This document shows positions 1,214 to 60,636 of a stretch of DNA of 64,000 nucleotides, piece by piece. Origin of the DNA: Candidatus Parcubacteria bacterium (GTDB taxonomy: Bacteria > Patescibacteriota > Minisyncoccia > Phycocordibacterales > UBA918); contig JBJOPW010000001.1 in the NCBI GenBank assembly GCA_046050355.1, forward strand, positions 67,858-131,857, given 5' to 3'. A program made the translations under genes and the position numbers. Positions within the stretch are counted from its first letter, which is position 1. Every line of letters begins with the position of its first letter. The notes under the pieces were generated by a model. The model did no database searches and was not told the origin of the DNA. It saw only the letters and a program-made list of their open reading frames with translations.

Positions 1214-1849
1214 ATGGCGATAAGAAAGTTTTCATTCGCACCTGACGAAATATTCCATTGCTATAACCGTGGGGTTGATAAACGAGCAGTTTTTGAAGAT
1301 AAGCAGGACTACGGGTATTTTTTAAAGTTGTTGCGATATTTTAATACATCGGCAGTGAGAGGTAATTTAAGGTCAGTAGAAAATAAAGAGCCTATAAATC
1401 CTCCAGTAACTATACTTGCCTACTGTCTTCTTCCAAACCATTATCATCTTTTAGTACGCTGTAATGATGTTGAGGGAGGTTTGTCAAAATACATGCAGCG
1501 TGTTGCAGGCGGATATACGATGTATTTTAATCAAAAGAATAGTCGATCGGGTTCTCTATTTCAGGGTAAGTTTAAGGCAAATCACGTTGATACCGATAGT
1601 TATTTACGGAACATCTTAGCGTATGTTGGGTTTAATTTTATTGTTCATGATATAAATGAAAAAAGTCTGTATCGAGCGAGCATCAATTATAAAGACGAGT
1701 TAGTACGAGGTCTTGCCTCGTCCTTTTCAGAAGAACAAATGCTCGAAGTTATTGAAATAATAAAAGAAATGAGAAAGACGAGGCAAGACCTCGTCTTTGA
1801 GCATGAGAAGGTGGCTGGTGTGAAGAGTGTGGAGGATATTTCTACTTAG
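1214..1849 (+). CDS. HUH/Y1 tyrosine transposase-like protein (IS200/RAYT family, Y1_Tnp-type)
   Basis: N-terminal FHCYNRGVDKRAVFEDKQDY..FLKLL, the HUH motif in LLPNHYHLLV, and a candidate catalytic Tyr in ILAYVGFNFIV (compare YxxxNP). The last ~50 codons run through two copies of the GACGAGG palindrome, so the true C-terminus is uncertain. Confidence 0.75.
   Translation: MAIRKFSFAPDEIFHCYNRGVDKRAVFEDKQDYGYFLKLLRYFNTSAVRGNLRSVENKEPINPPVTILAYCLLPNHYHLLVRCNDVEGGLSKYMQRVAGGYTMYFNQKNSRSGSLFQGKFKANHVDTDSYLRNILAYVGFNFIVHDINEKSLYRASINYKDELVRGLASSFSEEQMLEVIEIIKEMRKTRQDLVFEHEKVAGVKSVEDIST
1705..1723. repeat. GACGAGG-family palindrome, copy 2 (acgaggtcttgcctcgtcc), inside the transposase ORF tail
   Basis: Same loop (tcttg) and orientation as copy 1. 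Its flank aaagacgag..ttagt..acgagg looks like copy 1 with a 10-nt insertion. Confidence 0.7.
1774..1798 (-). terminator. GACGAGG-family palindrome, copy 3 (loop inverted: caaga); probable intrinsic terminator of tgt
   Basis: On the minus strand it lies ~46 nt after the tgt stop and reads GACGAGGtcttgCCTCGTC followed by tttctcatttctttt. It overlaps the 3' tail of the plus-strand transposase ORF. Confidence 0.5.
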
Positions 1850-18037: not shown

Positions 18038-18793
18038 TCAAGACTTCGATCGAAAATAATTAGCGAGAAGGATTGAAAAGTCTTTGAAGGTCATAGCCCC
18101 ATCATTATTAAAATCGTAGCGGTTGTTCTGCTTTACCCATTCCGCCATAAATATACTGATATCGTCAAGTGAGACTTTTCCATCAGCATTCACATCGCTG
18201 ACAAGGAGAACCACTGCTCCGGCTTCAAGTGTCCCATCCGTACTTTCGGCAATTTTAAGTCTTAACTGACTCTCTTCCCCGATTTTTGCGTTAATTTCGG
18301 TCCCCTTGCCATCACCTGCCAGTAGGTTGGCTTCGGTGGTTGAAAACACAATTTCCCCAGTAGCACGAGCTTTGGCTCTTATGGTGGCGATAAGGTGTTT
18401 ACCTACAAACCCTTTGCGGTATGTCCCACCTTCGAGTAAAACCGCTCCATTTTCAACTCGCGGCTCACTTGTCCAAAGCGTAATTACTGACTCACCGCGG
18501 TCAATACCAAGTACTTCAATTTTGTCTTCAGGATACGCAATGCTCAGTGAGACAGCATTGACCGGTGTGTTTGCAACTGCATAGACAGCGATAAAGAATG
18601 TCTCATCTGGAGCACTTTGTGATTGTTTGGTTTCAAGTATAATTGATGATTTTGAAGAACCAACTACTGAAGCGAAACTTGCTACGACCATGAGAGCGAA
18701 CAACCACGAAAACAGGTAGCGTACCGTTGTGGTTGATGTGCGGCTTCGCCGAGCGTGTATATAGGCTACAACTAGCTGCCATAGTTTGATCAT
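18038..18793 (-). CDS. Cohesin-like domain plus C-terminal dockerin (adaptor-scaffoldin-like), N-terminal anchor
   Basis: Cohesin-like FFIAVYAVANTPVNAVSLSIAYPEDKIEVLGID...LLAGDGKGTEI. Dockerin duplicated Ca-loop DVNADGKVSLDDISIF...DFNNDGAMTFKDFSILL. ATGA start/stop overlap with the upstream gene. Confidence 0.65.
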   Translation of the reverse strand: MIKLWQLVVAYIHARRSRTSTTTVRYLFSWLFALMVVASFASVVGSSKSSIILETKQSQSAPDETFFIAVYAVANTPVNAVSLSIAYPEDKIEVLGIDRGESVITLWTSEPRVENGAVLLEGGTYRKGFVGKHLIATIRAKARATGEIVFSTTEANLLAGDGKGTEINAKIGEESQLRLKIAESTDGTLEAGAVVLLVSDVNADGKVSLDDISIFMAEWVKQNNRYDFNNDGAMTFKDFSILLANYFRSKS

Positions 18794-19477: not shown

Positions 19478-21193
19478 TTAGCGAGTTAAGGTGGTTACGT
19501 CTGATACTTCTTTTTGTACAATTTGCTCTGCTGATTTTAACACGGTTCTTATATCTGTAATAAGGGCACCTTCGGTCGCTGTCAATTTACCGGTTTTGCG
19601 GCTACGAACAATATCCGCTTCGTGTGCATGCAGCAGTTCTTCAATAACAATAAATTGGGCATGAAGCGCAGTACCAACTTCACTACTTTCACGGTTAAGG
19701 AGTACCCGGAAGCGGCGATACCGTGCCAAGAAGTAAAAACTGCCGAGGGTAGCCAGTACGAGCAGGGCAATCAGTGGAATAATGACCGAGAGCACATCAA
19801 TCAAGAATGAACCGATTCGTACGAGACCCATAGGTTGTACAACAAATTGGACGGGGTCAGAAATACCACTTTGCGCACCAAACTCATCATGTGCAGCAGC
19901 CGTGAGGGCATAGACGCCTTCAGTGAGAGCGCTGTTCGGGATAAAACGAAACGTACCTGTTTCGTCACTCTTTACCTCGTAGATAGCTGGCTCTTGTCCA
20001 GTCTTCGTGAGGGTTACGGCGACTGTAGCATTTGGTCTTGTGGTACCAAGGAATACTGGGATGACACCGGTACTGATCTCGGTTGGCACATCGCTAAAGC
20101 GTGGTGCTTCAAATGATTCAATCTCGAACGTAAAGGTTGAGACCGTGCTGTTGCCGGCGGCATCAACCACTTCTACCACCATTGTTTGGCGACCGGGAGT
20201 CAATTTCTCGAGTTTTATTTCATTTTTACCTTCTTCATTTTTGTACTCAACTGGTGCAGCGCCATTGAGTTGTACCCTAAAGACTTTAATTGGTGAGCCA
20301 TTGGTATCAGTAGTTGATGCTACGACAATTTGTGTCGGATTCGCCAGATTGCTATCGGGTTTGAGGCTCAACACCACATTTTGGGGAGCGTTAGTATCAA
20401 CCCCGAGACGATAGTGCGCTACCTTGCCCCACCCCTCGGCATTTTTGAATTGGATATGGAAATACGATACCCCTTCATCGAGATCAGCAAGGGTAATCTC
20501 TTTGATAGGACTATCATAGACTTTGGTTGGTATGGCAGTCGGAGATTCATCAAGTGCGGTTCGTACAGCGACTACATCTCCCGGTAGTGTCCAGCGGAGA
20601 ATAGCGGTCTTGTCTTTTGACCAGCCGGCTGGGTCGCCATGGGTATCGGAGGTTATCTTTGGAGCCGCTGGTGTATTGGCTGGTGGTACGTATTCAACAA
20701 TGGTTTCGGGGGCTGGGGTCTCAGTGGCAGCAGAGATGGTATACGCACCACTCCCCATACTCGAGAGCACATTGGTCCCGCGACCATCAGCCGCTAGAAC
20801 AGAGCCACTACCAAAGGTGACACGCGCTGCTCCAGATCCCAGGGTGCGGAAGGTGATGTTCATCACTGTTCCTGACCCACCAGTGTAGCCGGTCGGCGTA
20901 CCACCGCTAAAGTTAATCGTACCAGCACTATTAGAGTAGGTTGGTTCGGTGGTCCAGAGATTAAAGATTGAACTACTGCGGGAAACCGACACTACCTGAA
21001 GCGCTTTATTATCAAAATTAATCGTGCCATCAGCGGCATTAATGGCAGCTCCTTTAGTATCAACCGCCACGCGCACAGTAAAGGTACTGCCGCTGCCATA
21101 GACACCAGTAGCTGGTGACATATTGAGAGTGGCCGCTAGAGCGAATGAACTAGAACCAAAGAGCGCAAGTAGTATAAGGAGACGACTAAACAT
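19478..21193 (-). CDS. Cohesin-like surface protein with Ig-like domains, C-terminal TM and a ~100-aa cytoplasmic helical tail (paralogue of 56211-57755)
   Basis: ATLNMSPATGVYGSGSTFTVRVAVDT...LWTTEPTYSNSAGTINFSGG...VLAADGRGTNV. Start set to the ATG at 21193 (MFSRLLILLALFGSSSFALA), right after the upstream stop. Confidence 0.65.
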   Translation of the reverse strand: MFSRLLILLALFGSSSFALAATLNMSPATGVYGSGSTFTVRVAVDTKGAAINAADGTINFDNKALQVVSVSRSSSIFNLWTTEPTYSNSAGTINFSGGTPTGYTGGSGTVMNITFRTLGSGAARVTFGSGSVLAADGRGTNVLSSMGSGAYTISAATETPAPETIVEYVPPANTPAAPKITSDTHGDPAGWSKDKTAILRWTLPGDVVAVRTALDESPTAIPTKVYDSPIKEITLADLDEGVSYFHIQFKNAEGWGKVAHYRLGVDTNAPQNVVLSLKPDSNLANPTQIVVASTTDTNGSPIKVFRVQLNGAAPVEYKNEEGKNEIKLEKLTPGRQTMVVEVVDAAGNSTVSTFTFEIESFEAPRFSDVPTEISTGVIPVFLGTTRPNATVAVTLTKTGQEPAIYEVKSDETGTFRFIPNSALTEGVYALTAAAHDEFGAQSGISDPVQFVVQPMGLVRIGSFLIDVLSVIIPLIALLVLATLGSFYFLARYRRFRVLLNRESSEVGTALHAQFIVIEELLHAHEADIVRSRKTGKLTATEGALITDIRTVLKSAEQIVQKEVSDVTTLTR

Positions 21194-21194
21194 A

Positions 21195-22223
21195 TTAGTT
21201 AATTTCAGTGACCTCAGCCTCGGCACTCACCGCGGAAGCCTGCTTTTGGCGGCGGCGTCGACGCCAATACCAGACTCCAGCGAAACTGAAGAGGACAAGC
21301 GCTACTCCAGTGGCTGCAGCCACTGCCAGCGTTATTGGTGAAAAGCGACTGATATGAGCGTTTTGTGGGGCCAAAGTAGCAATGTATTCATTCCCCGCTT
21401 TATCAACGGCGCGCACGCGGATAGTACTCTTGAGTGACTGATCAGTGAGCACATATGGACTGCGTCCTTCCGTCCACACTGTTGTGGCCGCACCAAAGGT
21501 AAAGAGTCTCGTGTCCTCAACCGGTTCTTCGATTACTTCATAGTGACTCATGCCACTTTGTTTGTCGGTAGTGTTAAAGACAATATAGTACTTCTTTTCA
21601 AAAGCATAGTCGTCTTTCTCGAGGGTAATAGAAAATTCTTCGGGCGGGATATCATCATCTGCAACAACATCTCGCCACTCATCGATAATAGTAGACCCAA
21701 CAACTTGATTGAGCGTCAATTCTGCCCCGAGTGTTTGGAGCGCTGCTTCAGTCCCAAAACCATCATTCAAAAAGGCGCGTGTTTCTGGATTAAATGTCAC
21801 CGTTCCAAAGGGAGCGACCTCCCCACCACCAACGGTGAGACCGGGAGCACGAAATACAATCTGGAGTAGTGTATTAGTGAGTCTCGGATCACCATCAACA
21901 CGCCCACAATAGCCATTTGGAATACCGCCAGCAAATGAGATGGTGCGTGCATTTTTGTCAATCACTGGCTGTTCCACCCAAATTGGAAATATTGACTGGC
22001 CAATTGAAATATCAACCGGATTTATAGCCTCGTTGTAACTAATCACCCCATCAATAGCATTAATACATTCATCTTCAGCTTCGTTCGTATCTAGTCGCAC
22101 TGAGAGTGTCACTGAATCACCACGATTAAGTGTTGGTCGCGGCGGGTCAAGGTACAAGGTGGCTGCTGACACGGAATCAGCCACCAAAAACATACACAAA
22201 AAGAGAACGAGTCGGTAGACCAT
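21195..22223 (-). CDS. Cohesin-like surface protein with Ig-like domain and C-terminal TM anchor
   Basis: AATLYLDPPRPTLNRGDSVTLSVRLDT...IDGVISYNEAINPVDISIG...ISFAGGIPNGY. TM LAVAAATGVALVLFSFAGVWYW followed by RRRRRQ. Start set to the ATG at 22223 (MVYRLVLFLCMFLVADSVSA). Confidence 0.55.
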   Translation of the reverse strand: MVYRLVLFLCMFLVADSVSAATLYLDPPRPTLNRGDSVTLSVRLDTNEAEDECINAIDGVISYNEAINPVDISIGQSIFPIWVEQPVIDKNARTISFAGGIPNGYCGRVDGDPRLTNTLLQIVFRAPGLTVGGGEVAPFGTVTFNPETRAFLNDGFGTEAALQTLGAELTLNQVVGSTIIDEWRDVVADDDIPPEEFSITLEKDDYAFEKKYYIVFNTTDKQSGMSHYEVIEEPVEDTRLFTFGAATTVWTEGRSPYVLTDQSLKSTIRVRAVDKAGNEYIATLAPQNAHISRFSPITLAVAAATGVALVLFSFAGVWYWRRRRRQKQASAVSAEAEVTEIN

Positions 22224-24570: not shown

Positions 24571-25677
24571 CTACCCGGTCCAGTTGAAGAGGAGGATTGA
24601 GAAGTCTTCAAGTCCAACCTTCCCATTACTATTGATATCCGCCGGCGGGTTTGAGTCACCGCCATTAGTACTCCACCAGAAAATGAGAATAGAAAAGTCG
24701 GTTAGATTAACCTTACCATCACGACTGAGGTCAGATGGCGAGCTGGGTGCGCCATCGACGCCTAAAAGCAGCTGCACGACACTACTATAACCACTTTGGG
24801 TCAGTAGTGGTGGTGTGCCAGTAATAGAGCGAACTTTGATTGGATAGGTGGCATTACGGAGACTCGCCGTATTGAGCGTATAGCTGTAACGACCACTAGT
24901 GTCACTGGTCGTTCGTTCGGTGCGAAGACTACTGTTCCCTACCTGGATTTCGATCGCAGCACTCGGGACTGCCTGTCCAGAAATCGTAACTGTTCCGCCA
25001 GGACTGACTTTAGTATTTGATAAGGCTAAGGTCGGCGGCAACAAAAGGCCACTGACATTTGTTACGGCGCCTTGAGTCACATCAAAGGTACTATTGAGCG
25101 TGATAGAGCGTACCCCCGTCGAGTCATTCGCCCACACACCCATGGTAGCGGTTCCTGGCGACGCTTTGGTCGAAAATTCAAAACGACCGGTACTATTAGC
25201 TCGTACGGAACCGACAGACTTGGTATCAAGAAGAAAATTAACTTGCTGATTTGGATACGCAATACCAGTAATACTGATTGACGAATCACCAAGATCGCGG
25301 GTACCACCGCCACCTCCTCCACCGCCAGATGATCCACCGCCGCCAGAACCAGCCGGTTCTATTTGACAGGTAGCCGAACAAAAATCACCACCGGTGTTAT
25401 TCGCATCGTCACACTCTTCTGCATAAGTAGTCTGCAAAATACCATCACCGCAGTATGGTCCATAGTCACAGACAGCATTGCATTGTCGCCCAGCAATGGT
25501 GGTACTGTAGAGACCAATTTCACCAGGCACATCGCACTGTTCCCCGACATCGATGAGTGCGTTCCCGCAGATACTCAAATCAATAGTGGTTGTTGCTGTT
25601 GAAATAGTGACAGCGAGTACTTCGTGTGGCATAACACCAAGCGAAGCGACGAAGAGGAGGAGAGCAGCAAGGCGCAT
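24571..25677 (-). CDS. Secreted protein: Cys-rich repeats (Myxococcus cysteine-rich-repeat-like), Gly linker, two Ig-like domains, C-terminal dockerin
   Basis: CGNALIDVGEQCD...YCGDGILQTTYAEECDDANNTGGDFCSATCQIE; GSGGGGSSGGGGGGGG. Dockerin DLSRDGKVNLTDFSILIFWW...DINSNGKVGLEDFSILLFNW. Confidence 0.7.
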   Translation of the reverse strand: MRLAALLLFVASLGVMPHEVLAVTISTATTTIDLSICGNALIDVGEQCDVPGEIGLYSTTIAGRQCNAVCDYGPYCGDGILQTTYAEECDDANNTGGDFCSATCQIEPAGSGGGGSSGGGGGGGGTRDLGDSSISITGIAYPNQQVNFLLDTKSVGSVRANSTGRFEFSTKASPGTATMGVWANDSTGVRSITLNSTFDVTQGAVTNVSGLLLPPTLALSNTKVSPGGTVTISGQAVPSAAIEIQVGNSSLRTERTTSDTSGRYSYTLNTASLRNATYPIKVRSITGTPPLLTQSGYSSVVQLLLGVDGAPSSPSDLSRDGKVNLTDFSILIFWWSTNGGDSNPPADINSNGKVGLEDFSILLFNWTG

Positions 25678-28708: not shown

Positions 28709-28734
28709 TAAAAAAGACGAGGTCGGACCTCGTC
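28709..28734 (-). terminator. Intrinsic terminator (GACGAGG-family palindrome, copy 4) closing the tandem RNA array
   Basis: Minus strand: GACGAGGTC-c-GACCTCGTC followed by TTTTTTaaaaatt. The plus strand has no T-run after the hairpin, which sets the orientation. Confidence 0.7.
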
Positions 28735-28969: not shown

Positions 28970-29111
28970 GAGACGTGGACTGGGCCATTAGGTGAGAAAA
29001 CGTGGGACGTTTTCGCAAGACTCATTGCGTAATTTTATGAGTGGTAACGAAATAAAATTGCCAATGAGTAGACAGTTTCTGTAAGAAATAGGCCCAGCTC
29101 ACGGAAATTCG
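28970..29111 (-). ncRNA. Unclassified structured RNA motif, copy B
   Basis: Helices: cgtggactgggcc/ggcccagctcacg, gagaaaacg/cgttttcgc, actcattg/caatgagt, aattttat/ataaaatt. Loops tggga and gagtgRtaacgaa are conserved with copy A. Confidence 0.55.
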
Positions 29112-29231
29112 CAATAGTCGGCGAAGAAGATTCAAGAAACATAGTGATTCGGCCTAGAAAAGACATTAGGAATAGTCTTCTCTAGGTAAGTTCGCAATAG
29201 TCGGCTTGCGCTTCGTTTGCTCACTTAATTT

Positions 29232-30440
29232 CTATTCATAGCGAATCGCATCCAGTGGATTTAGAGACGAAGCCCGACGGGCTGGGAAGATTCCAGTCAA
29301 GTACCCCACCGCCGCTGAGAAGAGAGCAATAAATACGAGGAAGCCAATCGGGAAAGAAAAGAGCTTCACTGCCTGCCCGCCAAATTGCCCCGCCACAATA
29401 TTCAAAAAGACATTGATGGTCACCCCTAAACCTACCCCCATCACGATGCCACTAATACCGCCAAGGAAGCCTACTACCACCGACTCTGACACGAAGAGGT
29501 ACTTCACATCATTTGGTGAGGCCCCAATCGTACGCATAATACCGATCTCTTTGGTACGCTCAAGGAGGGTCACCGTCATGGTATTGAACATACCAATGGC
29601 TGACACTACTAGCGCAATACCACCGAAGGTAGCAAGTACGATCTGAATTCCTTGAAAGATTTTGGAAGCTTGCTCCACGGTCTTTGAGAGTGCTGTCACC
29701 CGGTAGCCAGCGTCGATAAGTTTATTTTCTACAATCGGTAAATTCTCGTTGGTATCAACGCGTACTTGAATCCGTTCAAATTCTTCAATACCGACATAGT
29801 TGCGTAGTTCAGGCAACATCATCATCGCATTAAGGACACCTTCCTCTTTGGTAATGCCACGAACAGTGTATTCCTTATCAATAATGACTTCAGTGTTGTT
29901 GTTAGTCCCATCATTAGCCGGAATCAAAATACGAAATGATACTTTTTCACCAACAAAGGTGGCTGGATCATCAACTCCAAACAGCTTTAGTACGGCTGGC
30001 GAAAGCATCACAGAATTCGTATCACCAGCGTCAGCATCGGTAAAGACAGTGCCTTCAGTGGCCGATACGCCGGCATACCGCAGATAAGGTGGCTCCACAC
30101 CTTGAATAAAGACGTTCCCGGTGAGACCTTTGTAGGTGACGAGAGCCGGAAAGCGAGCGAGCGGAGCGGCGTCGAGTACCTCAGGCATATTTTCAAAATC
30201 AGCCACGGTCTCGGTGGTCAATTTTAGGTTTTGCGCACCAGTAGCTGAGACACCGAGCGACAAAAGGGTCTCACCAAACACGATCTGTTCTAGAATGATT
30301 TGCTGCAAACCAAACCCAAGACCAACGAGAATCACCACGGCCCCTGTCCCCACACCCATACCCAAAATCGTGAGCCACGTACGAAGCGGGTTGGTTTTGA
30401 ACATACGCGTCGAAAGCTGCGCCAGATCCTGAACTCGCAT
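29232..30440 (-). CDS. ABC transporter permease, FtsX/MacB-type (4 TM plus large extracytoplasmic domain)
   Basis: FKTNPLRTWLTILGMGVGTGAVVILV at the N-terminus; C-terminal LERTKEIGIMRTIGASPNDV...FPARRASSLNPLDAIRYE. The ORF-track start at 30461 is a TTG inside the promoter-like box, so the ATG at 30440 is preferred. Confidence 0.85.
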   Translation of the reverse strand: MRVQDLAQLSTRMFKTNPLRTWLTILGMGVGTGAVVILVGLGFGLQQIILEQIVFGETLLSLGVSATGAQNLKLTTETVADFENMPEVLDAAPLARFPALVTYKGLTGNVFIQGVEPPYLRYAGVSATEGTVFTDADAGDTNSVMLSPAVLKLFGVDDPATFVGEKVSFRILIPANDGTNNNTEVIIDKEYTVRGITKEEGVLNAMMMLPELRNYVGIEEFERIQVRVDTNENLPIVENKLIDAGYRVTALSKTVEQASKIFQGIQIVLATFGGIALVVSAIGMFNTMTVTLLERTKEIGIMRTIGASPNDVKYLFVSESVVVGFLGGISGIVMGVGLGVTINVFLNIVAGQFGGQAVKLFSFPIGFLVFIALFSAAVGYLTGIFPARRASSLNPLDAIRYE

Positions 30441-30446
30441 AGTACT

Positions 30447-30460
30447 TACATTATGACACA
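30447..30460 (-). promoter_or_regulatory. Extended -10-like box TGTGTCATAATGTA, 9 nt (from CATAAT) upstream of the permease ATG
   Basis: An identical 14-mer recurs upstream of the ATPase ATG (31908-31921). Confidence 0.4.
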
Positions 30461-30504
30461 ACTACTTTTCGTAAACATTAGATAACCCCCATGTCAAAAT
30501 GAAT

Positions 30505-30577: not shown

Positions 30578-31900
30578 CTAACTTTTGTAACTAACATCTA
30601 CCCCTTGTGCAATCAACTTTTCAAAGTAACGAGTCATGTCATCAGCCTCCTTCTCAGACAAAGAGAGACCTTTGCTCCGGATCCCTTCCATTAATCGTGT
30701 ATTAAAGTCTTTCTCTTCGACGACACCAGTCACTCGGTCCGCCACTAGTTCAACGAGGTTAGCATCTTGCTCTTTACTAAGCTTCATACGGTATACCTCT
30801 TGGAGGTGATCACGGAGTCGCTCAGCGAGTTTATGTTGACTAAAGAAAACACCGGCATTGTCCTTCTTGGCACGAAAACGGCGAATATCATCTGATTGTT
30901 CAATCAATTTTTCACTCCGTTTGGCCATATCTTTGGCTACCGACTCTGGCACCTCCACTCCCCCGCGTTCTAATGGCAATACAAGTGCATTTATAAAGGC
31001 GTCGCGATCAATTTTGCCTTTAATGAAGAAACCAACCGCACGTTCAAGTCGTTGGATTTGGTCAAAGGTGTAGTCTTGTGTGAGGTAGTTTACAAGACTT
31101 TTTACCCGCAGAGTTTCTACCGAATCATACGGGAAGAGTCGTGCCAGCTGCTCGAGTTCAGTCACAATCGTCTCCCCTTCACGTACTGGCTTAATCTGTT
31201 TACGTTGCGGGTTGACCACTTCGCGCACAATAAAGCCATCTTTGAGATAGTACACCCGGTGCGCATACGAAAGATGCGCAGCGTTGTGTGACACCATAAT
31301 AATGGTACGACGGTCAAAGGTGTTAATTTCGTCAATTTTATCCATTACTTGCTGAGTCGAAATCGAGTCAAGGTTACCGGTTGGTTCGTCCGCCAGAAGA
31401 ATCTTTGGATCATTCACCATACTCCGAGCTACTGATACACGCTGTTGCTGTCCACCGGAGAGCATCGAGGGGATTTTGTGTGACACATGCCCTACCCCAA
31501 AACGATCGAGGAGCGATTGGGCTCGTCGATCACGGGTCTGTTTGTCGGCATTACAAAAAATCATTGGTAGAGCTACATTATCAAGCACCGACAGCGACCC
31601 AATGAGGTTAAACGACTGGAAGATAATACCCATCACGTAGCGCTGGAAGTACACACGTTCTGAAGGTGGATAGGAATAGATATCATCCCCTCGAATAAGG
31701 AGTGTTCCGTCTCCTGGTGGCAAAGAACCCTGAATTGAATACATGAGTGTCGACTTCCCTGACCCTGAGGCCCCGAAGAGAATGATGTACTCACCTTCAT
31801 AGATGTCCGTGTTCACATTTTGGAGCGCACGAAATTCGTTACTCTTGCCTTTATTATAAATAATCGACAAGTCACGACAAACAATCAGAGGCTTCGCCAT
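30578..31900 (-). CDS. ABC transporter ATP-binding protein (MacB/LolD/FtsE-like) with a ~210-aa C-terminal helical extension of unknown function
   Basis: [11 protein letters not shown] (Walker A), [15 protein letters not shown] (signature), [12 protein letters not shown] (Walker B), MVSHN (H-loop). Residues ~230-440 have no motif I recognise. Confidence 0.9.
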
Positions 31901-31907
31901 ACGTAGC

Positions 31908-31921
31908 TACATTATGACACA
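31908..31921 (-). promoter_or_regulatory. Extended -10-like box TGTGTCATAATGTA, 10 nt (from CATAAT) upstream of the ATPase ATG
   Basis: Minus strand: gcTGTGTCATAATGTAgctacgtATG. Same 14-mer as at 30447-30460. Confidence 0.4.
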
Positions 31922-32028
31922 GCATAACAATTGAAGACGTCTCTCATATCCCCATTACCAAATCAAAACAAATAAGATGTGTGATTTGTTTCAGCATGAG
32001 TCTGCTAGGATTTACAAACTTGATGCAG

Positions 32029-32105
32029 TTCGAGGCGGACGAGTAAAATTTTGTGAGGCGTATTAAATATACGTTTAATAAAATTTTATGAAGTCCAACA
32101 AAGAA
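32029..32105 (-). repeat. 3'-flank element copy L3 (hairpin CGTAT-ttaaa-ATACG, flanked by taaaatttt/aaaatttta)
   Basis: The box (+ strand caacaaag, 32096-32103) ends 21 nt after the relic TAG at 32125-32127. Hairpin at 32059-32073. Confidence 0.6.
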
Positions 32106-32124
32106 ATGCGCTAGTTTGGAGATT

Positions 32125-32154
32125 CTAGTTGGTAATGTTCTTAACCCAACCAAA
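32125..32154 (-). pseudogene. Relic or alternative gene 3' end encoding FGWVKNITN-stop, a duplicate of the last 9 codons of the Fn3 gene
   Basis: Minus strand TTT GGT TGG GTT AAG AAC ATT ACC AAC TAG versus the real end TTT GGT TGG GTT AAG AAT ATA ACT AAT TAA. All differences are synonymous third positions. The relic is in frame with the real stop. Confidence 0.5.
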
Positions 32155-32229
32155 AAGTAAAACAACAACCGTGAGGTTGTATGATTTTACTTTGTTCCAA
32201 CTTTCTATTCCTAATGAAAGTTCTGGAAC

Positions 32230-32288
32230 CTTTTGGTGGATTAAGATATAACTAATTTAATTAGTTATATTCTTAACCCAACCAAAAG
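32230..32288 (-). repeat. Long imperfect hairpin (~26 bp) whose 3-nt loop is the TAA stop codon of the Fn3 gene
   Basis: The left arm (32230-32256) is the inverted copy of the last ~10 codons (32260-32288). Pairing checked base by base: 2 bulges, 1 mismatch. Confidence 0.7.
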
Positions 32289-33732
32289 TAGACTCAAAGT
32301 TCTCAAGAATCAAATCAATAATATTCTTCTCTTGAATCGGTGTAAAGAGCACGAAGTTTTCAGACTGTATGGTATTTTCAGCTTCATCAGTACAGTTAAG
32401 CCAGAATTGGTAGACAGTCGCCGGCGCAAAATCAGTAATAACCTCAACGTGGTTGGTATTATATTCAAGTACTTCTTTTTCGAGCACAATCGGTTCAACT
32501 CCACCCGCCACTCCTTCACGATAGGTCATAATACATGAAGCCGGTTCATCAGTATTCCATTCAACGATTGTCTGTACCCGTGATTCTCCCCCCGGGAAAA
32601 TAGTAGATTCATTGGTCACATTTGAGATCAGCGGAGCCGAATTATCGCGTACCGTAATAAATTGAATCGGTTGACTACGAACGCGGTCTCCGCCAGAGTT
32701 TTCGGCAATCACAAACGCGACATAGCGAGTACCCAGAGTAAGATCAGAGAGACGCATCTGGTGTGTAGTGGCTAAAGTTGGTCGCCCTACAGAATTCTGG
32801 GTACCAAGGGTGAGATCTTGGTATTCAATGAGCGCTTTCGCCGGCACGGTTGTATCCCACGCTAGGGTGGCAGCATTTTCTTCTACCTTGACGATGCGTA
32901 AGTTACGAATGTCGGGTAACGAGGCTTTGGTTTTAAACGTGTACGTTCTACTTTCACCAGTAATTTGGTACGAATCGGTGGAACGAACTTGAAAACTGTA
33001 CTCAGTAAATGGCTCAAGACCAATGAGCTTAATCTCGTGGTCAGTGACCGCACCAGCGGTTGACGATTGTGAGAAATCAAAATTGGTACCATCAAAGCCG
33101 TTAGTTCGGGCAAAACGAACTTCTGAATTGGCTTCACGATCAGTCACCCAGGACACAGTTGCTGAAGTAGTTTCTGGTACTACCGTTGGTGGACCAACAA
33201 TGGTCAAATCTTCAGTAATACCCTGAATCGCTTTGACAGTTTCGTTAAGAATTTCCTGGAGCTGTTGTGGGCTTTGGATTTGCTGAATTTGTTCAACAAT
33301 CTCTTGCGGTGTATTAGTTTGTCCGGGTCCAACCCCACTACCTGAGCCACTGTCTGAAGATTTCTCGCTATCGACATCTATTTTGTAGTCAGCGGAGATA
33401 CCTTGGTTACCATCAGCATCAGCGGAAATCACTCGAAAATAGTACGTACGACCAGGGTCGAGGTTTTCGAGGGTCACCGAATGACTGGTACGATTTGCTA
33501 CTGGCACACGGACAACTCCCAGATCTGGATTGAGACTGTAATTTACTGCCGAATCCGCGCTTTCATTCGTCTTCCAAGTAATCGTTACCGTTGTTTCGGT
33601 GGATGAAGCAACTTTTACTTCGGTGATTTCTGGTGCTTTTGTATCACTGGTTTGCGCTATAAGCGGGTTACTCGGTAACGCAAAAACACCGAGGAAGAGG
33701 AGGAGTAGCGGAAATAAACGCAACATAATCAT
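32257..33732 (-). CDS. Secreted protein with four fibronectin-type-III-like repeats
   Basis: Signal MIMLRLFPLLLLFLGVFALP. Repeats of the type TxxTVTITWKTNESADSAVNY...LxPGxxYYFRVxSxDxxGN occur four times. Confidence 0.75.
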   Translation of the reverse strand: MIMLRLFPLLLLFLGVFALPSNPLIAQTSDTKAPEITEVKVASSTETTVTITWKTNESADSAVNYSLNPDLGVVRVPVANRTSHSVTLENLDPGRTYYFRVISADADGNQGISADYKIDVDSEKSSDSGSGSGVGPGQTNTPQEIVEQIQQIQSPQQLQEILNETVKAIQGITEDLTIVGPPTVVPETTSATVSWVTDREANSEVRFARTNGFDGTNFDFSQSSTAGAVTDHEIKLIGLEPFTEYSFQVRSTDSYQITGESRTYTFKTKASLPDIRNLRIVKVEENAATLAWDTTVPAKALIEYQDLTLGTQNSVGRPTLATTHQMRLSDLTLGTRYVAFVIAENSGGDRVRSQPIQFITVRDNSAPLISNVTNESTIFPGGESRVQTIVEWNTDEPASCIMTYREGVAGGVEPIVLEKEVLEYNTNHVEVITDFAPATVYQFWLNCTDEAENTIQSENFVLFTPIQEKNIIDLILENFESTFGWVKNITN

Positions 33733-33750
33733 AGGTAGTATACCATCACG

Positions 33751-36700
33751 TTATGGTGAGACTGGCGTAAAGACGTTGATACCAGAGTGAGGCGCACTGT
33801 TCACCCCAAACGGTACCTCAATTCCCCAGAAGATGTCCGTGGTTACTGGTGGCGTTGGTACGGTCGGTTTACTGAGATTAACATCAAGTGCTACTGGAGT
33901 TGAACTTGAGAGGAGTGAGCAGACGGCACAGCCACTGTAGGTGAACGTACTCGTAGCAAATTTTTGTTTATTGGCTGGAATCACTGATGAGGCGCCATCA
34001 CTGAGATCAGTTCCCTCTACTTCGATATCAAATGGTACGTTACCAGCATTTGCAATAGTCGTTGTTGCATTATAAGAACCGGTATCAGCTTGAGGGGCCA
34101 AAGAACCGTAGTTAATACCAGAATTTATACTCAGTGATCTTACCGTAAGTAGTTCAACGGCCAAGCTATCAGCAAAATCATATCCGCCACTATTATCAAT
34201 CACTTCAGTGAAGGCGAACCACTCAGCTGCGCCATCATCTGAAGGAGTTGCAAAGAATTGTATATCAGCATAACAAATTAAGTTACAGTTGTTGCCTGTG
34301 CACTGCAGATTACATTGATTACTGGTATCAACACGGTAACAATTGTTGTCATCAGGTGTACATGATGAGGTACCGGACGCGGTTTTGTAGAAGGTAGTCG
34401 TAGCCATTTTAATATCACTCGCACCGTTAAAGTCGGTAATGGTTGTCGTGGCGTAAATGCGGGTGGTTGTTCCTGGTAGCAATGCAATGTCAAACCCGTC
34501 ATTGAGGTTGACTGTGCCAATCACCGGATCAAATTGGAGACCAAGTTCAGCCACTTTAGCGTAGTAGTCGATTGGAGTTGAACCGTTTACCACGCGGAAA
34601 CAGTAGTTATCAGAAGCATTGTTAGTCGGAGTAATCACATACTCAAGTTCGGTGTAACGATCTTGATTAACTGATAAACCACTAGTCATAGTAGACGGAC
34701 TTTCAACAACCGCACCAGCACTAAACTGACCATTACTGGTAGTAAGCAAGTCGGTAGTCGCTTCACCGTCGGTAACGTTGCTGGATACCTGCATACAAAC
34801 GGGTGACGATCCGCACGATGCCTGATTTGGTACGGCTGCAAAGCTACCACTACTGACCGCTTCACAACTCGGAGCACCACCCTTGGCGGCATACTGGAGC
34901 CGGTAGGTCTGTCCTGTCACATCGAGACCAGAATTCTCTATGCCGATACGTAGACGACGAGTGACATTTGGCAAGCCACTACCTAAAGTATTCTCCGCAG
35001 CGACCCACGATGCACCACCGGCAGTTTGTTTGGCACCAAAGGAAATACCGGGATTAATCGGACCTCGTCCGCTCACCTGGTAGCTATCCCAGGCGCCATT
35101 TTGTACCCAGAAGGTAAAGCCCATACCACCACTGGTATACGAACTATCGGTAGCGGTAGTCGACGCTACAATCGAGCCAGCAGCATTATAGAGGTACACA
35201 TCAATACGATTGCTGGTTTGCCAATCAATTTCGACCAGATACCAACCAGTAGCAAAGGTGACCGTGGTAGACGCCAAGCGGGTACCGGAAACATCGTTAT
35301 CAGTTACATTCTTCGACAGTGAGAGGCGGTCTGTTCCAAACAGTTCAAGACACACTGCGTAGTTATTATTATTGGTGCCGGGAGTTTGTACACCAAATAG
35401 TGCACAACCTTCATCGGCTGATCCCGTTGTAGTATCGACGTATTGGCGATATCGAATAACTTGACCCTGCGCTGTTAGACTGCCGGTACGGAAGATACCA
35501 TCAGTGGTTCGACCTGACTTATTTAAGGCTTCAAGCGCATAGCTACCACCAAAGACTGGCGCGGTATCGGTCTGGAATAATGTCGTATCGCCACTGTACT
35601 CAGTAATATTGTTATCTTCAAAGTCGTCACTAAAGCTGAAAGTGGCAGCCGCTGAACTTGAACTGGTTGAACTTGCATTTCCAAAGTACGCAAAGACATC
35701 AGTATATGCATTTGCCGCTAGACTCGGCACCTCTACCCACACCACGGCTTCAGTACTCGCCGTGTAACGATCAAGCCAGAAATCAAGTGGCGTCACCCCG
35801 TCAATACGGGTAAAGCGAAGATCATCAAAGTCAGATTGCATCGCACTATCGTACGGTACGACAATCTTAACCGTGGTGGTCGAGAAAGTGGTAGCGGTAA
35901 TGTTTTCGATGCGGACTCGCTGCCGATTACTCCATGACAAGTTATACCACTCACTATTTGGCGCTCCTTCTCCCCCATCATCAGCACGCCAACGGTAGCT
36001 GGTCTGTGAAGTCAAAAGACAACCACTATCGTCAAAGCGTATTGAACCACATGCGTCAACACCGTCACTGTCAAACGCTTCTCCACCGATGTTGCCGTAG
36101 CTACCACTAAAGCGCCACGCATTACTGGTACTACCGACCAGTGCTGTATTGGTACCATTCCAACTATTTCCAGCATTAAAGCCAACGGCGGTAAATATCT
36201 TTGACGCATTGGCATTAAGCGCTGTGTCAGCCAATGTGATGAGGGTACCACCGTTAAGCGCTAGATTGTAGTAACCGTTACTCAAATTGGTGATAGTAGG
36301 CGTATTGATGAAATTAAGACCGGTGCTATTGAGGGCGTTAAAGCGATAGTACTGGGCATTAAAGGTACCACCAGTGACAATAAACGCGTGGGTGCCGGTA
36401 CTGATGTTACCAATGGTAGTCGAGGCACTTAGTCCACCAATGATACTAAGAGTACCGCTCTGGACAGTGGTAGTTGCATTTTCATTGATCCGAACGGTTA
36501 CTGCTCGCTCAGTGCCAGTAAGTGCAGTACCATCAAAATCGGTAGCGTACGACCAGTATTCACTCGTGGTGGCAACGGTGAAGTCTCCATAAATATTGAG
36601 GGCTCCGTCAACTACGCCATGGTCTTGTGAGTAGAGTGAGGCCCCCGCACCGGTAGTGGTGGTAGCCACCGAACTATTCCACAGGCGTAGATCAGCGACA

Positions 36701-60570: not shown

Positions 60571-60636
60571 AGGTATATTGTACCTTGTGAGGATGAACAA
60601 AATGGGTGTTCTCCCACAGTTAAACAATGTTTGAAA

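What the first reader, a model, noticed from the sequence alone, without database searches (positions are those of the whole stretch)
32125..32290. Triplicated gene-3'-end segment: stop codon in the loop of a ~26-bp hairpin, plus an in-frame 43-codon extension ending in the same nonapeptide
The last ~30 nt of the Fn3 gene occur three times:
- the real end (32257-32290);
- an inverted copy immediately after it (32230-32256), which makes a hairpin whose 3-nt loop is the TAA stop;
- a direct copy 132 nt downstream (32125-32159).

The downstream copy encodes the identical peptide FGWVKNITN-stop. It differs from the real end only at synonymous third positions (AAT>AAC, ATA>ATT, ACT>ACC, AAT>AAC, TAA>TAG).

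It is in frame with the real stop, and the 43 intervening codons contain no stop: TAA-ISYILIHQKVPELSLGIESWNKVKSYNLTVVVLLFGWVKNITN-TAG.

The relic TAG is followed by an L-type element at near-canonical spacing. That suggests the relic was the ancestral gene end and that ~132 nt (a multiple of 3) were inserted or duplicated. Alternatives are a foldback/MITE-like insertion with long target duplication, a recombination scar, or a readthrough-dependent alternative C-terminus.
Basis: seen in the sequence. Interest (0 to 1): 0.55.

Follow-up and report, generated by a model that had tools for sequence, protein, structure and literature searches.

The report
Structured insert displaces a gene's end
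In an uncultured Paceibacteria (CPR) genome, a roughly 100-base folded non-coding module sits between the working last 11 codons of a surface-protein gene and an older, displaced copy of those codons; the same arrangement recurs in many related genomes and at a second gene, so it is a real insertion scar and not an alternative protein end.

Summary
The last 33 nt of the Fn3 gene (32257-32289, minus strand) recur inverted (32230-32256; 27-bp hairpin with TAA as its loop) and direct (32125-32157, encoding FGWVKNITN-stop).

Orthologous loci show that the distal copy is the ancestral gene end, still joined to the ancestral downstream sequence. The 99 nt between the copies are an insert: the inverted copy plus two hairpins, H1 and H2. 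H1-H2 belongs to a covarying element family that is not in Rfam and lies beside genes of this Fn3/ABC-transporter cluster in both orientations.

Sixteen further loci, of at least six insert types, show the same arrangement, and one shows it at the end of the neighbouring giant gene. Spacings are 131-171 nt in all three frames, some have internal stops, and most relics have no start codon. Readthrough is therefore refuted, and the in-frame 43 codons here are coincidence.

Differences between working end and relic are almost all synonymous (34:2), and relics are either intact or absent.

Best reading: a MITE-like module is gained with a long target duplication or its own replacement gene end, and lost by repeat recombination, so relics are recent samples of working ends. 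How it inserts, and what the module does (probably a 3'-UTR/terminator), are inferred. Relic decoding is unlikely but not excluded.

The parts
32257..33732 (-). Fn3-domain protein gene (491 aa, N-terminal signal-peptide-like segment). Its last ~35 residues, SENFVLFTPIQEKNIIDLILENFxSTFGWVKNIxx, are nearly invariant.
   Evidence: ORF list. Pfam fn3 and Pur_ac_phosph_N. 120 homologues at 70-100% identity share the C-terminus.
32257..32289 (-). Proximal, working copy of the last 11 codons (ACT TTT GGT TGG GTT AAG AAT ATA ACT AAT TAA). This is the 'class I' synonymous allele that travels with the insert. The stop codon is 32257-32259.
   Evidence: The allele classes switch exactly at -33 from the stop.
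32230..32256 (-). Inverted copy (A') of the gene end. It pairs with 32260-32288 to form a 27-bp hairpin whose 3-nt loop is the TAA stop.
   Evidence: (I4). The pairing is kept by paired changes in L078 (ATA>ATT) and in L099/L124 (ACT>ACA).
32194..32229 (-). Hairpin H1 of the element: GTTCC-AG-AACTTTC-ATTAGGAATA-GAAAGTT-GGAAC.
   Evidence: helix 1: 12 of 14 pairs have compensatory changes; 94.6% of cells are paired.
32154..32193 (-). Hairpin H2 of the element (AAAGT...ACTTT outer stem). Its apex ACAACC-TCAC-GGTTGT followed by a T-rich tail is terminator-like.
   Evidence: helices 2 and 3; terminator-like site at 32165-32180.
32125..32157 (-). Distal relic copy of the last 11 codons (CTT TTT GGT TGG GTT AAG AAC ATT ACC AAC TAG). 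It is the displaced ancestral gene end and carries the 'class II' allele.
   Evidence: There is no start codon in its frame.
32015..32118 (-). The 'L-type' element: one long interrupted hairpin that follows the ancestral stop. It is context, not part of the insert.
   Evidence: 36 pairs, 27 with compensatory changes across 11 loci.
31901..31954 (-). Conserved promoter-like region of the ABC ATPase gene: TGGGGATA at 31947-31954, TGTCATAAT at 31911-31919, ATG at 31900.
   Evidence: Read directly. The same motifs at the same spacing occur in L003, L004, L007, L014, L092, L103, L105, L120, L122 and L123. The promoter function is inferred.
29150..29237 (+). Second copy of the H1-H2 element in the window, in the opposite orientation, abutting the stop of the FtsX/MacB-type permease gene. 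It has the same H1 loop, ATTAGGAATA.
   Evidence: 32.9 bits, E = 1e-4 with filters off.

Best explanation
The locus is a filled insertion site.

**Ancestral and present state.** Ancestrally the Fn3 gene ended at what is now the relic (32125-32157) and was followed by the L-type hairpin and the promoter of the ABC-transporter genes. A ~100-nt structured module now separates that old end from the rest of the gene, and a second copy of the last 11 codons upstream of the module keeps the invariant C-terminus intact. Here the module consists of an inverted copy of the gene end plus hairpins H1 and H2.

**The element family.** H1-H2 belongs to a small family of covarying, MITE- or REP-like intergenic elements in Paceibacteria. 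Copies sit against the start or stop codons of the giant-protein, Fn3, ABC ATPase and permease genes, in either orientation.

**Gain and loss.** Insertions behind a gene's 3' end come with a 24-43-nt direct duplication of the terminal codons.
- In the lineage of this window, the proximal copy, the inverted copy and H1-H2 behave as one conserved unit with its own synonymous allele. That unit is far more conserved than either flank.
- The unit is lost again by recombination between the two direct copies.
- Turnover is fast relative to point mutation, or relics are overwritten by working ends of relatives. Relics therefore still look like coding sequence, although nothing shows that they are translated.

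**Function.** In the mRNA, the stop-codon hairpin, H1 and the terminator-like H2 most likely act as a 3'-UTR, terminator or stabiliser between the Fn3 gene and the separately promoted ABC genes.

**What is shown and what is inferred.**
- Shown: the anatomy, the insertion polarity, the recurrence, the covarying structure, and the absence of frame conservation.
- Inferred: the insertion chemistry (long staggered target duplication, microhomology-mediated template switch, or recombination bringing a replacement end), the gain/loss dynamics, and the function.
For: **Polarity**
- Relic plus flank equals gene end plus flank in empty-site orthologues.

**Recurrence**
- 6 of about 55 species-representative loci carry a relic: L005, L008, L013, L046, L052, L055.
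- So do 9 metagenome loci (L078, L085, L092, L099, L103, L105, L108, L109, L114) and L124.
- In L037 the giant gene's end TFYAIGD-stop is duplicated around an H1-H2 copy, and 6 of 6 differences are synonymous.

**Element family**
- 31 distinct copies: 95.3% of cells are paired and 19 of 23 pairs show compensatory changes. Controls with slid partners give 31-52% paired.
- Copies occur in both orientations, abutting ATG or stop codons.
- No Rfam family matches.

**Not translated**
- Spacings cover all three frames, some inserts have internal stops, and most relics have no in-frame start.

**The unit has its own history**
- The insert is 82-99% identical between carriers whose Fn3 four-fold sites are saturated at 33-39% identity.
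- The identity peak runs from -32 to about +100.
- The allele class changes exactly at -33.

**Gain and loss**
- Carriers and non-carriers are interspersed on the tree. The sister taxa L092 and L103 carry different insert types with different junctions.
- L007 and L003 have chimeric class I/class II ends, as expected after recombination between the repeats.
- Relic scores are bimodal: intact or absent.
- L046, L103 and L105 have identical repeats, which fits recent events.
- L124 has a relic with an I>S change, so relics are not strictly protected.

**Terminator-like H2**
-. In L010 the H2 apex is replaced by a GC-rich terminator hairpin.

**Precedent**
- YPAL/RU-2 elements of Yersinia make target duplications of 3-26 bp next to dyad symmetries (PMC2229807).
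Against: - Only two copies of the element occur in 64 kb, and both lie in this gene cluster. A genome-wide mobile family is therefore not shown, and a cluster-specific regulatory element remains possible.
- No transposase or integrase partner was found. The RAYT-like gene at 1214-1849 is flanked by different hairpins.
- Element copies at other sites have no detectable flanking duplications.
- The block similarities roughly follow the host tree. That fits vertical inheritance with strong constraint as well as it fits spread among relatives.
- Under vertical inheritance, the purely third-position variation among relics (8 of 8 variable sites) needs either selection on the relic or repeated overwriting by working alleles. 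Neither has been demonstrated.
- In L108, L055 and L037, proximal and distal copies differ at half or more of their third positions (L108 5 of 10, L055 5 of 8, L037 6 of 8) yet encode the same lineage-specific peptide. Simple recency does not explain this easily.
- G.U versus A.C counts (14 versus 11) do not show which strand, or whether RNA at all, is the functional form.
Confidence: 0.55

Rival explanations
1. The arrangement is ancient, functional and vertically inherited. Proximal end, module and relic together form a conserved regulatory device. For example, it could be a translation-coupled RNA switch in which the inverted copy pairs either with the translated gene end or with the relic, setting termination or processing ahead of the ABC-transporter genes. 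Many lineages have lost it.
For: - Block similarities roughly track the host tree.
- Compensatory changes maintain H1 and the A/A' hairpin.
- No decayed relics are seen.
- The inverted copy can also pair with the relic: -19 kcal/mol versus -30 for the real end in this window, and -23.6 versus -26.0 in L103.
- The elements are confined to this operon-like cluster.
Against: - Most insert types (L052, L092, L108, L013, L037) have no inverted copy and no meaningful linker-relic pairing: -6 to -10 kcal/mol, hairpin z about 0.
- An RNA or DNA recognition function does not predict strict period-3 variation in the relic.
- The relic's differences from the real end would break pairing with A' at every third base of its 3' half.
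- About 90% of orthologues do without the device.
- L124 tolerates an I>S change in the relic.
Confidence: 0.15
2. The relic is decoded. The proximal copy plus the module is removed from, or bypassed in, part of the mRNA, by a small intron-like excision between the direct repeats or by long-range ribosome bypassing from the stop-codon hairpin. Both copies would then be under purifying selection for the same peptide.
For: - The synonymous-to-non-synonymous ratio between copies is 34:2 in codons 2-11, plus 6:0 in L037 and 5:0 in L055.
- All 8 variable sites among relics of this lineage are third positions.
- Copies share lineage-specific endings (AG, GGGG, TFYAIGD) although they differ at half or more of their third positions.
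- Independence from the reading frame is what splicing between repeats would predict.
- A stop codon inside a hairpin is reminiscent of the take-off site of T4 gene 60 (my own knowledge).
Against: - No known bacterial mechanism splices a 100-170-nt segment lacking group I or group II features, and no Rfam intron or ribozyme matches.
- The product would be identical to the unspliced product, so no benefit is evident.
- Junction positions differ between types: codon 1, codon 2 or codon 5.
- The L124 relic carries I>S and the L103/L013 relics carry F>I.
- Most types lack the stop-codon hairpin.
- The synonymous pattern can arise from allele turnover instead.
Confidence: 0.07
3. Site-specific integration scar. 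An integrase-type element with an attachment site equal to the gene's last ~33 nt integrated and reconstituted the gene end, as islands do at tRNA genes. The ~100 nt are what is left between attL and attR.
For: - Direct repeats flank the insert, and the proximal copy carries a foreign synonymous allele that moves with the insert.
- The repeats are identical in L046, L103 and L105.
- The same site is used repeatedly.
Against: - No integrase or recombinase gene lies next to any carrier locus (gene tables; Pfam).
- The insert is a member of a family that also sits at non-duplicated sites.
- The same phenomenon occurs at an unrelated sequence, the giant-gene end in L037.
- Junctions vary by several codons.
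- In L108 the duplication runs about 10 nt past the stop.
Confidence: 0.05
4. Readthrough-dependent alternative C-terminus: suppression of TAA gives a 43-residue extension that ends in the same nonapeptide.
For: In this window, and in L005 and L105, the relic is in frame and the intervening codons are open.
Against: - Frames 0, 1 and 2 all occur among carriers, and L103 and L013 have internal stops.
- The intervening codons are conserved as paired RNA/DNA structure, not as protein.
- An open 33-codon insert is expected by chance about 9% of the time (my own estimate).
Confidence: 0.02

Closest known systems
YPAL / RU-2 palindromic elements of Yersinia, and more broadly bacterial MITE-like small repeats (ERIC, Correia/NEMIS, RUP)
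   Same: They are small (about 100-170 nt), non-coding and strongly folding. They are intergenic, often just behind genes. Filled and empty sites occur among relatives. YPAL insertions give variable, unusually long target duplications (3-26 bp) next to dyad symmetries (PMC2229807). Correia elements affect transcript ends (my own knowledge).
   Different: - Here the duplications are longer (24-43 nt) and cover the last codons plus the stop of a gene.
- In the lineage of this window the proximal copy carries its own synonymous allele.
- No terminal inverted repeats are common to all copies.
- Copy number is low and, as far as seen, confined to one gene cluster.
- There is no sequence relation to any known family.
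REP/BIME elements with RAYT transposases
   Same: They are structured palindromic units. Pairs in alternating orientation lie between the genes of an operon, as the (-)/(+) pairs do in L019, L055, L013 and L025. They are thought to stabilise or terminate transcripts. A RAYT-like gene is present in the window.
   Different: - The unit here has two hairpins and about 90 nt, not about 35 nt.
- There is no conserved GTAG-type head.
- High copy number is not seen.
- The window's RAYT-like gene is flanked by a different hairpin, ACGAGGTCTTGCCTCGT.
- REPs do not make target duplications.
Integrative elements that reconstitute the 3' end of their target gene (tRNA, tmRNA and some protein genes)
   Same: The insertion lies inside the 3' end of a gene. 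The inserted DNA supplies a replacement end. The displaced original end remains as a direct repeat on the far side.
   Different: - The insert is about 100 nt with no integrase.
- The target is not one fixed sequence; a second gene is also affected.
- Junctions vary.
Intrinsic (Rho-independent) terminators that overlap the stop codon
   Same: In many orthologues the last codons and the stop are part of a stem directly behind the gene: L023, L039, L043, L050, L014. The H2 apex with its T-rich tail scores as terminator-like.
   Different: The 27-bp stop-codon hairpin here is AT-rich, has no U-tract, and is followed by two more hairpins.
Translational bypassing (T4 gene 60; mitochondrial byp elements)
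   Same: A stop codon lies in a hairpin at the end of a coding segment. Matching codons occur upstream and downstream of a structured gap. The inserted structured elements are mobile.
   Different: The peptide is already complete at the first stop. The gap is 99-138 nt. Most carriers lack the hairpin. There is no evidence of bypass.

Membership tests
MITE (miniature inverted-repeat transposable element) | Small, non-coding, and strongly folding | tested here: met
   The H1-H2 core is about 90 nt and the inserts are 98-138 nt. The region folds with z = -7.8. The covarying structure is shown.
MITE (miniature inverted-repeat transposable element) | Terminal inverted repeats shared by all copies | tested here: not met
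   No common terminal repeats were found. An ATGAGCGT / ACGCTCAT pair occurs only in a subset of copies. In this window the inverted pair A'/relic derives from the target gene, not from the element.
MITE (miniature inverted-repeat transposable element) | Short, fixed-length target-site duplication | tested here: not met
   Duplications are 24-43 nt and variable, and occur only at gene 3' ends. None is detectable at the other copies.
MITE (miniature inverted-repeat transposable element) | Many dispersed copies per genome and a related autonomous transposon | tested here: inconclusive
   Two copies occur in 64 kb, both in one gene cluster, and no whole genome was available. No partner transposase was seen in the ORFs scanned.
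MITE (miniature inverted-repeat transposable element) | Filled and empty sites among related genomes | tested here: met
   Carriers and non-carriers are interspersed on the Fn3 tree. The sister taxa L092 and L103 carry different inserts.
REP/BIME with RAYT | A ~35-nt imperfect palindrome, high copy number, and REPs flanking the RAYT gene | tested here: not met
   The RAYT-like gene at 1214-1849 scores 41.7 bits against a cut-off of 80. It is flanked by ACGAGGTCTTGCCTCGT hairpins at 1163, 1705 and 1778, not by H1 or H2. The covariance model finds no copy there.
Intrinsic terminator | G+C-rich stem followed by a U-tract | tested here: inconclusive
   The H2 apex at 32165-32180 passes the simple scan, with 6 pairs, 3 of them G-C, and a T-rich tail. 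The number of such sites in the region is not above shuffles, 4 versus 3.0. The stop-codon hairpin has no U-tract.
Programmed stop-codon readthrough extension | Downstream frame and open reading conserved among orthologues | tested here: not met
   Spacing modulo 3 takes the values 0, 1 and 2. L103 and L013 have internal stops.
Diversity-generating retroelement (VR/TR pair) | Repeat differences confined to adenines of one copy, and a reverse transcriptase nearby | tested here: not met
   The differences are T/C, A/T and A/G at third codon positions. No reverse transcriptase was found among the 24 window ORFs scanned; not every ORF was scanned.
Integrative element (attL/attR) | Adjacent integrase, and one fixed attachment core | tested here: not met
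   No recombinase appears in the neighbouring genes. Junctions vary, and a second, unrelated target is affected in L037.
Any Rfam family (release 15) | Match at the gathering score | tested here: not met
   The window gives no match at gathering thresholds. At E-values up to 10 only microRNA-type hairpin noise appears.
Translational bypass (gene 60 type) | Ribosomes resume at a matching codon after a structured gap | not testable with these tools
   Testing needs ribosome profiling or reporter assays. Sequence features are only partly reminiscent.

The most novel reading that the evidence does not exclude
Both copies of the gene end are kept by selection. Either the relic is decoded, by RNA-level removal or ribosomal bypass of the proximal copy plus module. 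Or the module is a self-contained portable cassette that brings its own replacement gene end and uses the displaced end as the homology arm for its next transfer. In both cases a ~100-nt non-coding element would have evolved a way to live inside the 3' end of essential, ultra-conserved coding sequence in CPR bacteria without harming it.
Probability: 0.12. Interest if true: 0.85.

Novelty: new variant of a known kind. Interest (0 to 1): 0.6.

Why it matters
**Two undescribed structured elements.** The work defines two covarying intergenic elements in Paceibacteria, neither of which is in Rfam.
- H1-H2 has 23 pairs, 19 of them with compensatory changes.
- The L-type hairpin has 36 pairs, 27 of them with compensatory changes.
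- Both are tied to a conserved cluster of giant surface protein, Fn3 protein and MacB-type ABC transporter, which probably mediates contact with host cells.

**An unusual insertion mode.** A small non-coding module repeatedly lands in the last 8-11 codons of a gene and leaves both a working and a displaced copy of those codons. The two copies differ almost only at synonymous sites.
- If turnover explains this, the locus is a compact natural marker of gain, loss and recombination rates in uncultured CPR populations.
- If the relic is under selection, an unknown decoding or transfer mechanism is involved.

**A practical point for annotators.** In-frame 'extensions' behind such genes are not alternative C-termini.

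Tried and rejected
- **Phage origin:** megablast of 31500-34000 against phage records found nothing. The window is a Paceibacteria/Parcubacteria chromosome segment.
- **tRNA, tmRNA or Rfam RNA in the window:** none.
- **Readthrough extension:** rejected on frames and internal stops.
- **Independent small ORF ending in the relic:** WIN, L005, L008, L099, L108, L046 and L013 have no in-frame start. The 74-aa TTG ORF at 31944-32168 is not conserved.
- **Tandem duplication of a [gene end + downstream] unit:** the sequence after the relic is unrelated to the sequence after the real stop.
- **Invertible switch between A' and the relic:** the minus-oriented copies behind Fn3 (L047, L003, L025, L011) are not flanked by those repeats, and the 72-nt segment is very short.
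- **RAYT/REP link:** the RAYT-like gene has different hairpins.
- **Integron attC or dif-like sites:** considered from memory only. The H1 ends do not fit the R'/R'' consensus. Not tested further.
- **DGR:** the differences are not adenine-specific.
- **Strand assignment from G.U versus A.C:** 14 versus 11, uninformative.
- **Decayed relics in empty-site loci:** none above the shuffle maximum except a borderline L012.
- **Scans of viral contigs for H1 and H2 motifs:** 35 pattern hits, none confirmed by the covariance model. The single H2-motif hit lies in GC-rich coding sequence.
- **Terminal-repeat idea (ATGAGCGT/ACGCTCAT):** present only in a subset of copies.
- **Metagenome two-copy pattern:** 34 of the 43 hits were unrelated repeats, that is CRISPR-like arrays and tandem repeats.
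Full report
**1. Context**

The window is a chromosome segment of an uncultured Candidatus Paceibacteria/Parcubacteria (CPR) bacterium. The exact protein is annotated from such MAGs, and the closest loci come from Paceibacteria and Kaiserbacteria MAGs.

Nearly all genes lie on the minus strand. The finding sits in an operon-like cluster:
- a 7456-aa giant ORF (33751-56121);
- a 491-aa Fn3-domain protein (32257-33732);
- an ABC ATPase (30578-31900);
- a MacB/FtsX-type permease (29232-30461).

No tRNA and no Rfam family is present.

**2.

- On the minus strand the gene ends ACT TTT GGT TGG GTT AAG AAT ATA ACT AAT TAA (32289-32257).
- An imperfect reverse complement, ATTAGTTATATCTTAATCCACCAAAAG (32256-32230), follows at once.
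- The two form a 27-bp hairpin whose 3-nt loop is the UAA stop: -28.6 kcal/mol, z = -8.3.
- 132 nt downstream lies CTT TTT GGT TGG GTT AAG AAC ATT ACC AAC TAG (32157-32125). It encodes the same FGWVKNITN-stop with five synonymous differences.
- A probe of the gene end hits only these two places in 64 kb, where 0.01 are expected.
- Two independent assemblies are identical over the region.

**3. The protein end is exceptional**

Among 120 homologues that are 70-100% identical overall, the last ~35 residues (SENFVLFTPIQEKNIIDLILENFxSTFGWVKNI) are practically invariant. Only the final 2-4 residues vary: TN, GG, GA, GK, GGGG and others. Any rearrangement that touches the last codons must therefore restore them to survive (inference).

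**4. Orthologous loci show an insertion, with the relic as the old end**

Seventy-two related loci were fetched from species-representative genomes.
- Most have a single gene end. It is followed either by the long L-type hairpin and then a conserved promoter-like region of the ABC gene (TGGGGATA, about 30 nt, TGNCATAAT, then ATG 7-11 nt later), or by that promoter region directly.
- In carriers, the relic and what follows it match the real end and flank of relatives without the insert. L008 relic matches the L009 end, and L013 relic matches the L014 end.
- So the distal copy is ancestral, and the DNA between the copies together with one copy is the novelty.

**5. What was inserted**

Between the copies every carrier has a linker and two hairpins.
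- H1 is GTTCC, a two-base AG bulge, a variable stem, a (C)TAGGAA-type loop, then GGAAC.
- H2 is a 5-bp A/U-rich outer stem, a 4-bp inner stem and a conserved apex.

An alignment of ten copies gave 14 of 23 pairs with compensatory changes. A covariance model built from it (R1) found 36 copies, 31 of them distinct, in the loci held. On these:
- 95.3% of cells are paired;
- 19 of 23 pairs have double changes;
- none of 500 shuffles reaches the observed pairing or covariation score;
- slid controls pair only 31-52%.

No Rfam family resembles it.

Where the copies sit:
- in the gene orientation, directly in front of the ATG of the ABC ATPase or the permease gene;
- in the opposite orientation, directly behind the stop codons of the Fn3, ATPase or permease genes;
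- sometimes as minus/plus pairs in one spacer (L019, L055, L013, L025).

The window holds two copies, with speed filters switched off as well: one inside the finding (32154-32229) and one behind the permease stop (29150-29237, opposite orientation). Both have the H1 loop ATTAGGAATA. G.U versus A.C counts (14:11) do not tell which strand matters.

**6. The arrangement recurs, also at a second gene**

A metagenome scan for two copies of TGGGTNAARAAYAT 115-145 nt apart returned nine more Fn3 loci. The other 34 hits were unrelated repeats. With the genome loci and L124 there are 16 further loci with the arrangement, of at least six insert types:

| Group | Loci | Spacing (nt) |
|---|---|---|
| Lineage of this window | L005, L008, L078, L099, L105, L124 | 131-133 |
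| | L103 | 138 |
| | L092 | 134 |
| | L108 | 131 |
| | L046, L085, L109, L114 | 143 |
| | L052 | 145 |
| | L013 | 165 |
| | L055 | 171 |

- The junction between H2 and the relic lies at codon 1, codon 2 or codon 5 of the 11-codon unit. In L108 the duplication runs about 10 nt past the stop.
- Copies of the element at other sites have no flanking duplication, with one exception.
- In L037 the end of the giant gene (ACG TTT TAC GCA ATT GGA GAT TAG, TFYAIGD-stop) is repeated behind an H1-H2 copy as ACG TTC TAT GCG ATT GGG GAC TGA. The peptide is the same and 6 of 6 differences are synonymous.
- The phenomenon therefore belongs to the element, not to one target sequence.

**7. Readthrough is refuted**

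- The spacing modulo 3 is 0, 1 or 2 in different lineages.
- L103 and L013 are in frame but contain stops.
- WIN, L005, L008, L099, L108, L046 and L013 have no ATG, GTG or TTG in the relic frame.
- The intervening sequence is conserved as paired structure, not as peptide.
- The overlapping 74-aa TTG ORF is not conserved.

**8. The stop-codon hairpin**

- A strong pairing of the gene end with the linker exists only in the lineage of this window (-22 to -29 kcal/mol, z -5.6 to -8.3), and more weakly in L103 and L046. It is absent in L052, L092, L108 and L013.
- Where present it is maintained by paired changes: ATA>ATT in L078, and ACT>ACA in L099 and L124, each matched in the inverted copy.
- In L103 the inverted copy complements that lineage's own GGT GGT ending.
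- Many orthologues without the insert also bury their last codons and stop in a stem of a terminator-like hairpin: L023, L039, L043, L050, L014. A structured RNA end at this stop is thus a general theme.
- The H2 apex in this window (ACAACC-TCAC-GGTTGT plus a T-rich tail) passes a simple terminator scan. In L010 the H2 apex is replaced by a GC-rich terminator hairpin.
- I infer a 3'-UTR, terminator or stabiliser role. This has not been shown.

**9. History of the unit**

- Four-fold degenerate sites of the Fn3 gene are saturated between carriers (33-39% identical), yet the 99-nt insert is 82-99% identical.
- Along the alignment, identity peaks from -32 to about +100 and falls on both sides.
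- The last 33 nt come in two synonymous allele classes, and the class changes exactly at -33.
  - All carriers of this lineage, plus L003, L007 and L010, have AAG AAT ATA ACT AAT.
  - The relics and the non-carriers L009, L006, L004 and L047 have AAR AAC ATC ACM AAC.
- On the protein tree, carriers and non-carriers are interspersed. The sisters L092 and L103 carry different insert types.
- L007 (AAT ATA ACT AAC TAG) and L003 (...AAT TAG) look like recombinants between a proximal and a distal copy. That is the expected product of deletion between the repeats.
- Block similarities nevertheless roughly follow the host tree. Spread is therefore mainly vertical or between close relatives.

**10. 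The unexplained core**

- Between working end and relic, codons 2-11 show 34 synonymous and 2 non-synonymous differences, and 36 of 50 nucleotide differences fall at third positions.
- L037 adds 6:0 and L055 adds 5:0.
- Among relics of this lineage, all 8 variable sites are third positions.
- Relic scores are bimodal, either intact or absent.
- A neutrally decaying scar would give roughly 57% non-synonymous differences (my own estimate). In-place neutral decay is therefore rejected.

The conventional explanations are these:
- The relics are young, because deletion between 33-nt repeats is faster than point decay.
- The proximal allele arrives with the module.
- Relics are overwritten by working ends of non-carrier relatives through recombination.

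L046, L103 and L105 have identical repeats, and L124 has an I>S relic. Both fit a scar that is sometimes new and sometimes starting to decay.

Less easily explained are L108, L055 and L037. Their copies differ at half or more of their third positions yet encode the same lineage-specific ending. Selection on the relic, through decoding or a transfer function, therefore cannot be excluded. I give it about 10%.

**11. Comparison with known systems**

- The closest analogues are bacterial MITE-like small repeats. YPAL/RU-2 of Yersinia is the nearest: it makes target duplications of 3-26 bp next to dyad symmetries (PMC2229807).
- The element is not a member of any described family. It has no shared terminal repeats, no short fixed duplication, no high copy number and no partner enzyme.
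- It resembles REP/BIME in its alternating pairs within an operon. However, the RAYT-like gene in the window (1214-1849) is flanked by a different hairpin.
- It works like tRNA-gene-targeting islands in that the gene end is reconstituted and the old end displaced, but there is no integrase and no fixed core.
- DGR, integron, readthrough and small-ORF explanations fail specific tests (see the membership table).

**12. Verdict**

- The finding is real and its main interpretation is right. Its most exotic alternative, readthrough, is wrong.
- What is new: a covarying element family in CPR bacteria, and a recurrent mode of insertion into the last codons of a gene that leaves a coding-like relic.
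- Confidence by claim:
  - high (about 0.9) for insertion scar with an ancestral relic, and for no readthrough;
  - moderate (about 0.55) for the gain/loss, MITE-like account as a whole;
  - low (about 0.35) for the terminator function.

Noticed in passing
It is one long interrupted hairpin of about 105 nt with invariant internal loops (TTCTTTGTTG and GCCTCGAA). Across 11 loci it has 36 predicted pairs, 27 of them with compensatory changes. It matches no Rfam family.
   Followed up: partly
window 29150-29237 (+ strand), with a partial H2-like piece just upstream (about 29100-29150): A second H1-H2 element copy abuts the permease stop codon. It is inverted relative to the copy in the finding, so the two copies bracket the ABC ATPase and permease genes. 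Both have the H1 loop ATTAGGAATA.
   Followed up: partly
window 1214-1849 (+), with hairpins at 1163-1179, 1705-1721, 1778-1794 and 28717-28733: A 211-aa Y1 (IS200-like) protein gives a sub-threshold match to REP-associated tyrosine transposases (RAYT). It is flanked and overlapped by copies of the hairpin ACGAGG-N5-CCTCGT: 4 sites where 0.08 are expected. This is a possible RAYT/REP system in a CPR genome, and it is unrelated to H1-H2.
   Followed up: partly
L037 2781-2942: The last 8 codons of the giant gene (TFYAIGD-stop) are duplicated around an H1-H2 copy. All six differences are synonymous, and the relic is followed by the presumed ancestral terminator hairpin. This is the same phenomenon as the finding, at another gene.
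   Followed up: yes
window 32257-32364 (C-terminal ~35 codons of the Fn3 gene) and 120 homologues: The C-terminal peptide SENFVLFTPIQEKNIIDLILENFxSTFGWVKNI is virtually invariant in proteins that are only 70% identical overall. It could be a sorting, anchoring or partner-binding signal, perhaps for the adjacent MacB-type transporter. Its function is unknown.
   Followed up: no
window 31901-31954 (- strand) and the equivalent position in at least 10 orthologous loci: A conserved promoter-like architecture lies ahead of the ABC ATPase gene: TGGGGATA, about 30 nt, TGNCATAAT, then the ATG only 7-11 nt further on. This suggests a leaderless or near-leaderless mRNA with no Shine-Dalgarno sequence.
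   Followed up: no
window 33751-56121 (-), 10174-16335 (-), 56211-57755, 19478-21226, 58657-60627, 24571-25677, 18038-18793: There is a 7456-aa ORF and a 2053-aa ORF. Several neighbouring proteins carry cohesin, dockerin and bacterial Ig domains, which suggests a cellulosome-like surface assembly in a CPR bacterium.
   Followed up: no
L023, L039, L043, L050, L014, L024, L040, L051 (about 45 nt after the Fn3 stop): In many orthologues without the insert, the last 2-4 codons and the stop codon are paired into the stem of a terminator-like hairpin. The downstream arm co-varies with the variable last codons.
   Followed up: partly
L075, L076, L080, L083, L084, L087, L088, L094, L101, L106, L107, L111, L113, L115, L116: Hits of the two-copy search pattern that all share the translated motif FI*TVWVKNI at 130-135-nt spacing. 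They look like arrays of a regularly spaced repeat (CRISPR-like) from unrelated metagenome contigs and are irrelevant to the finding.
   Followed up: no
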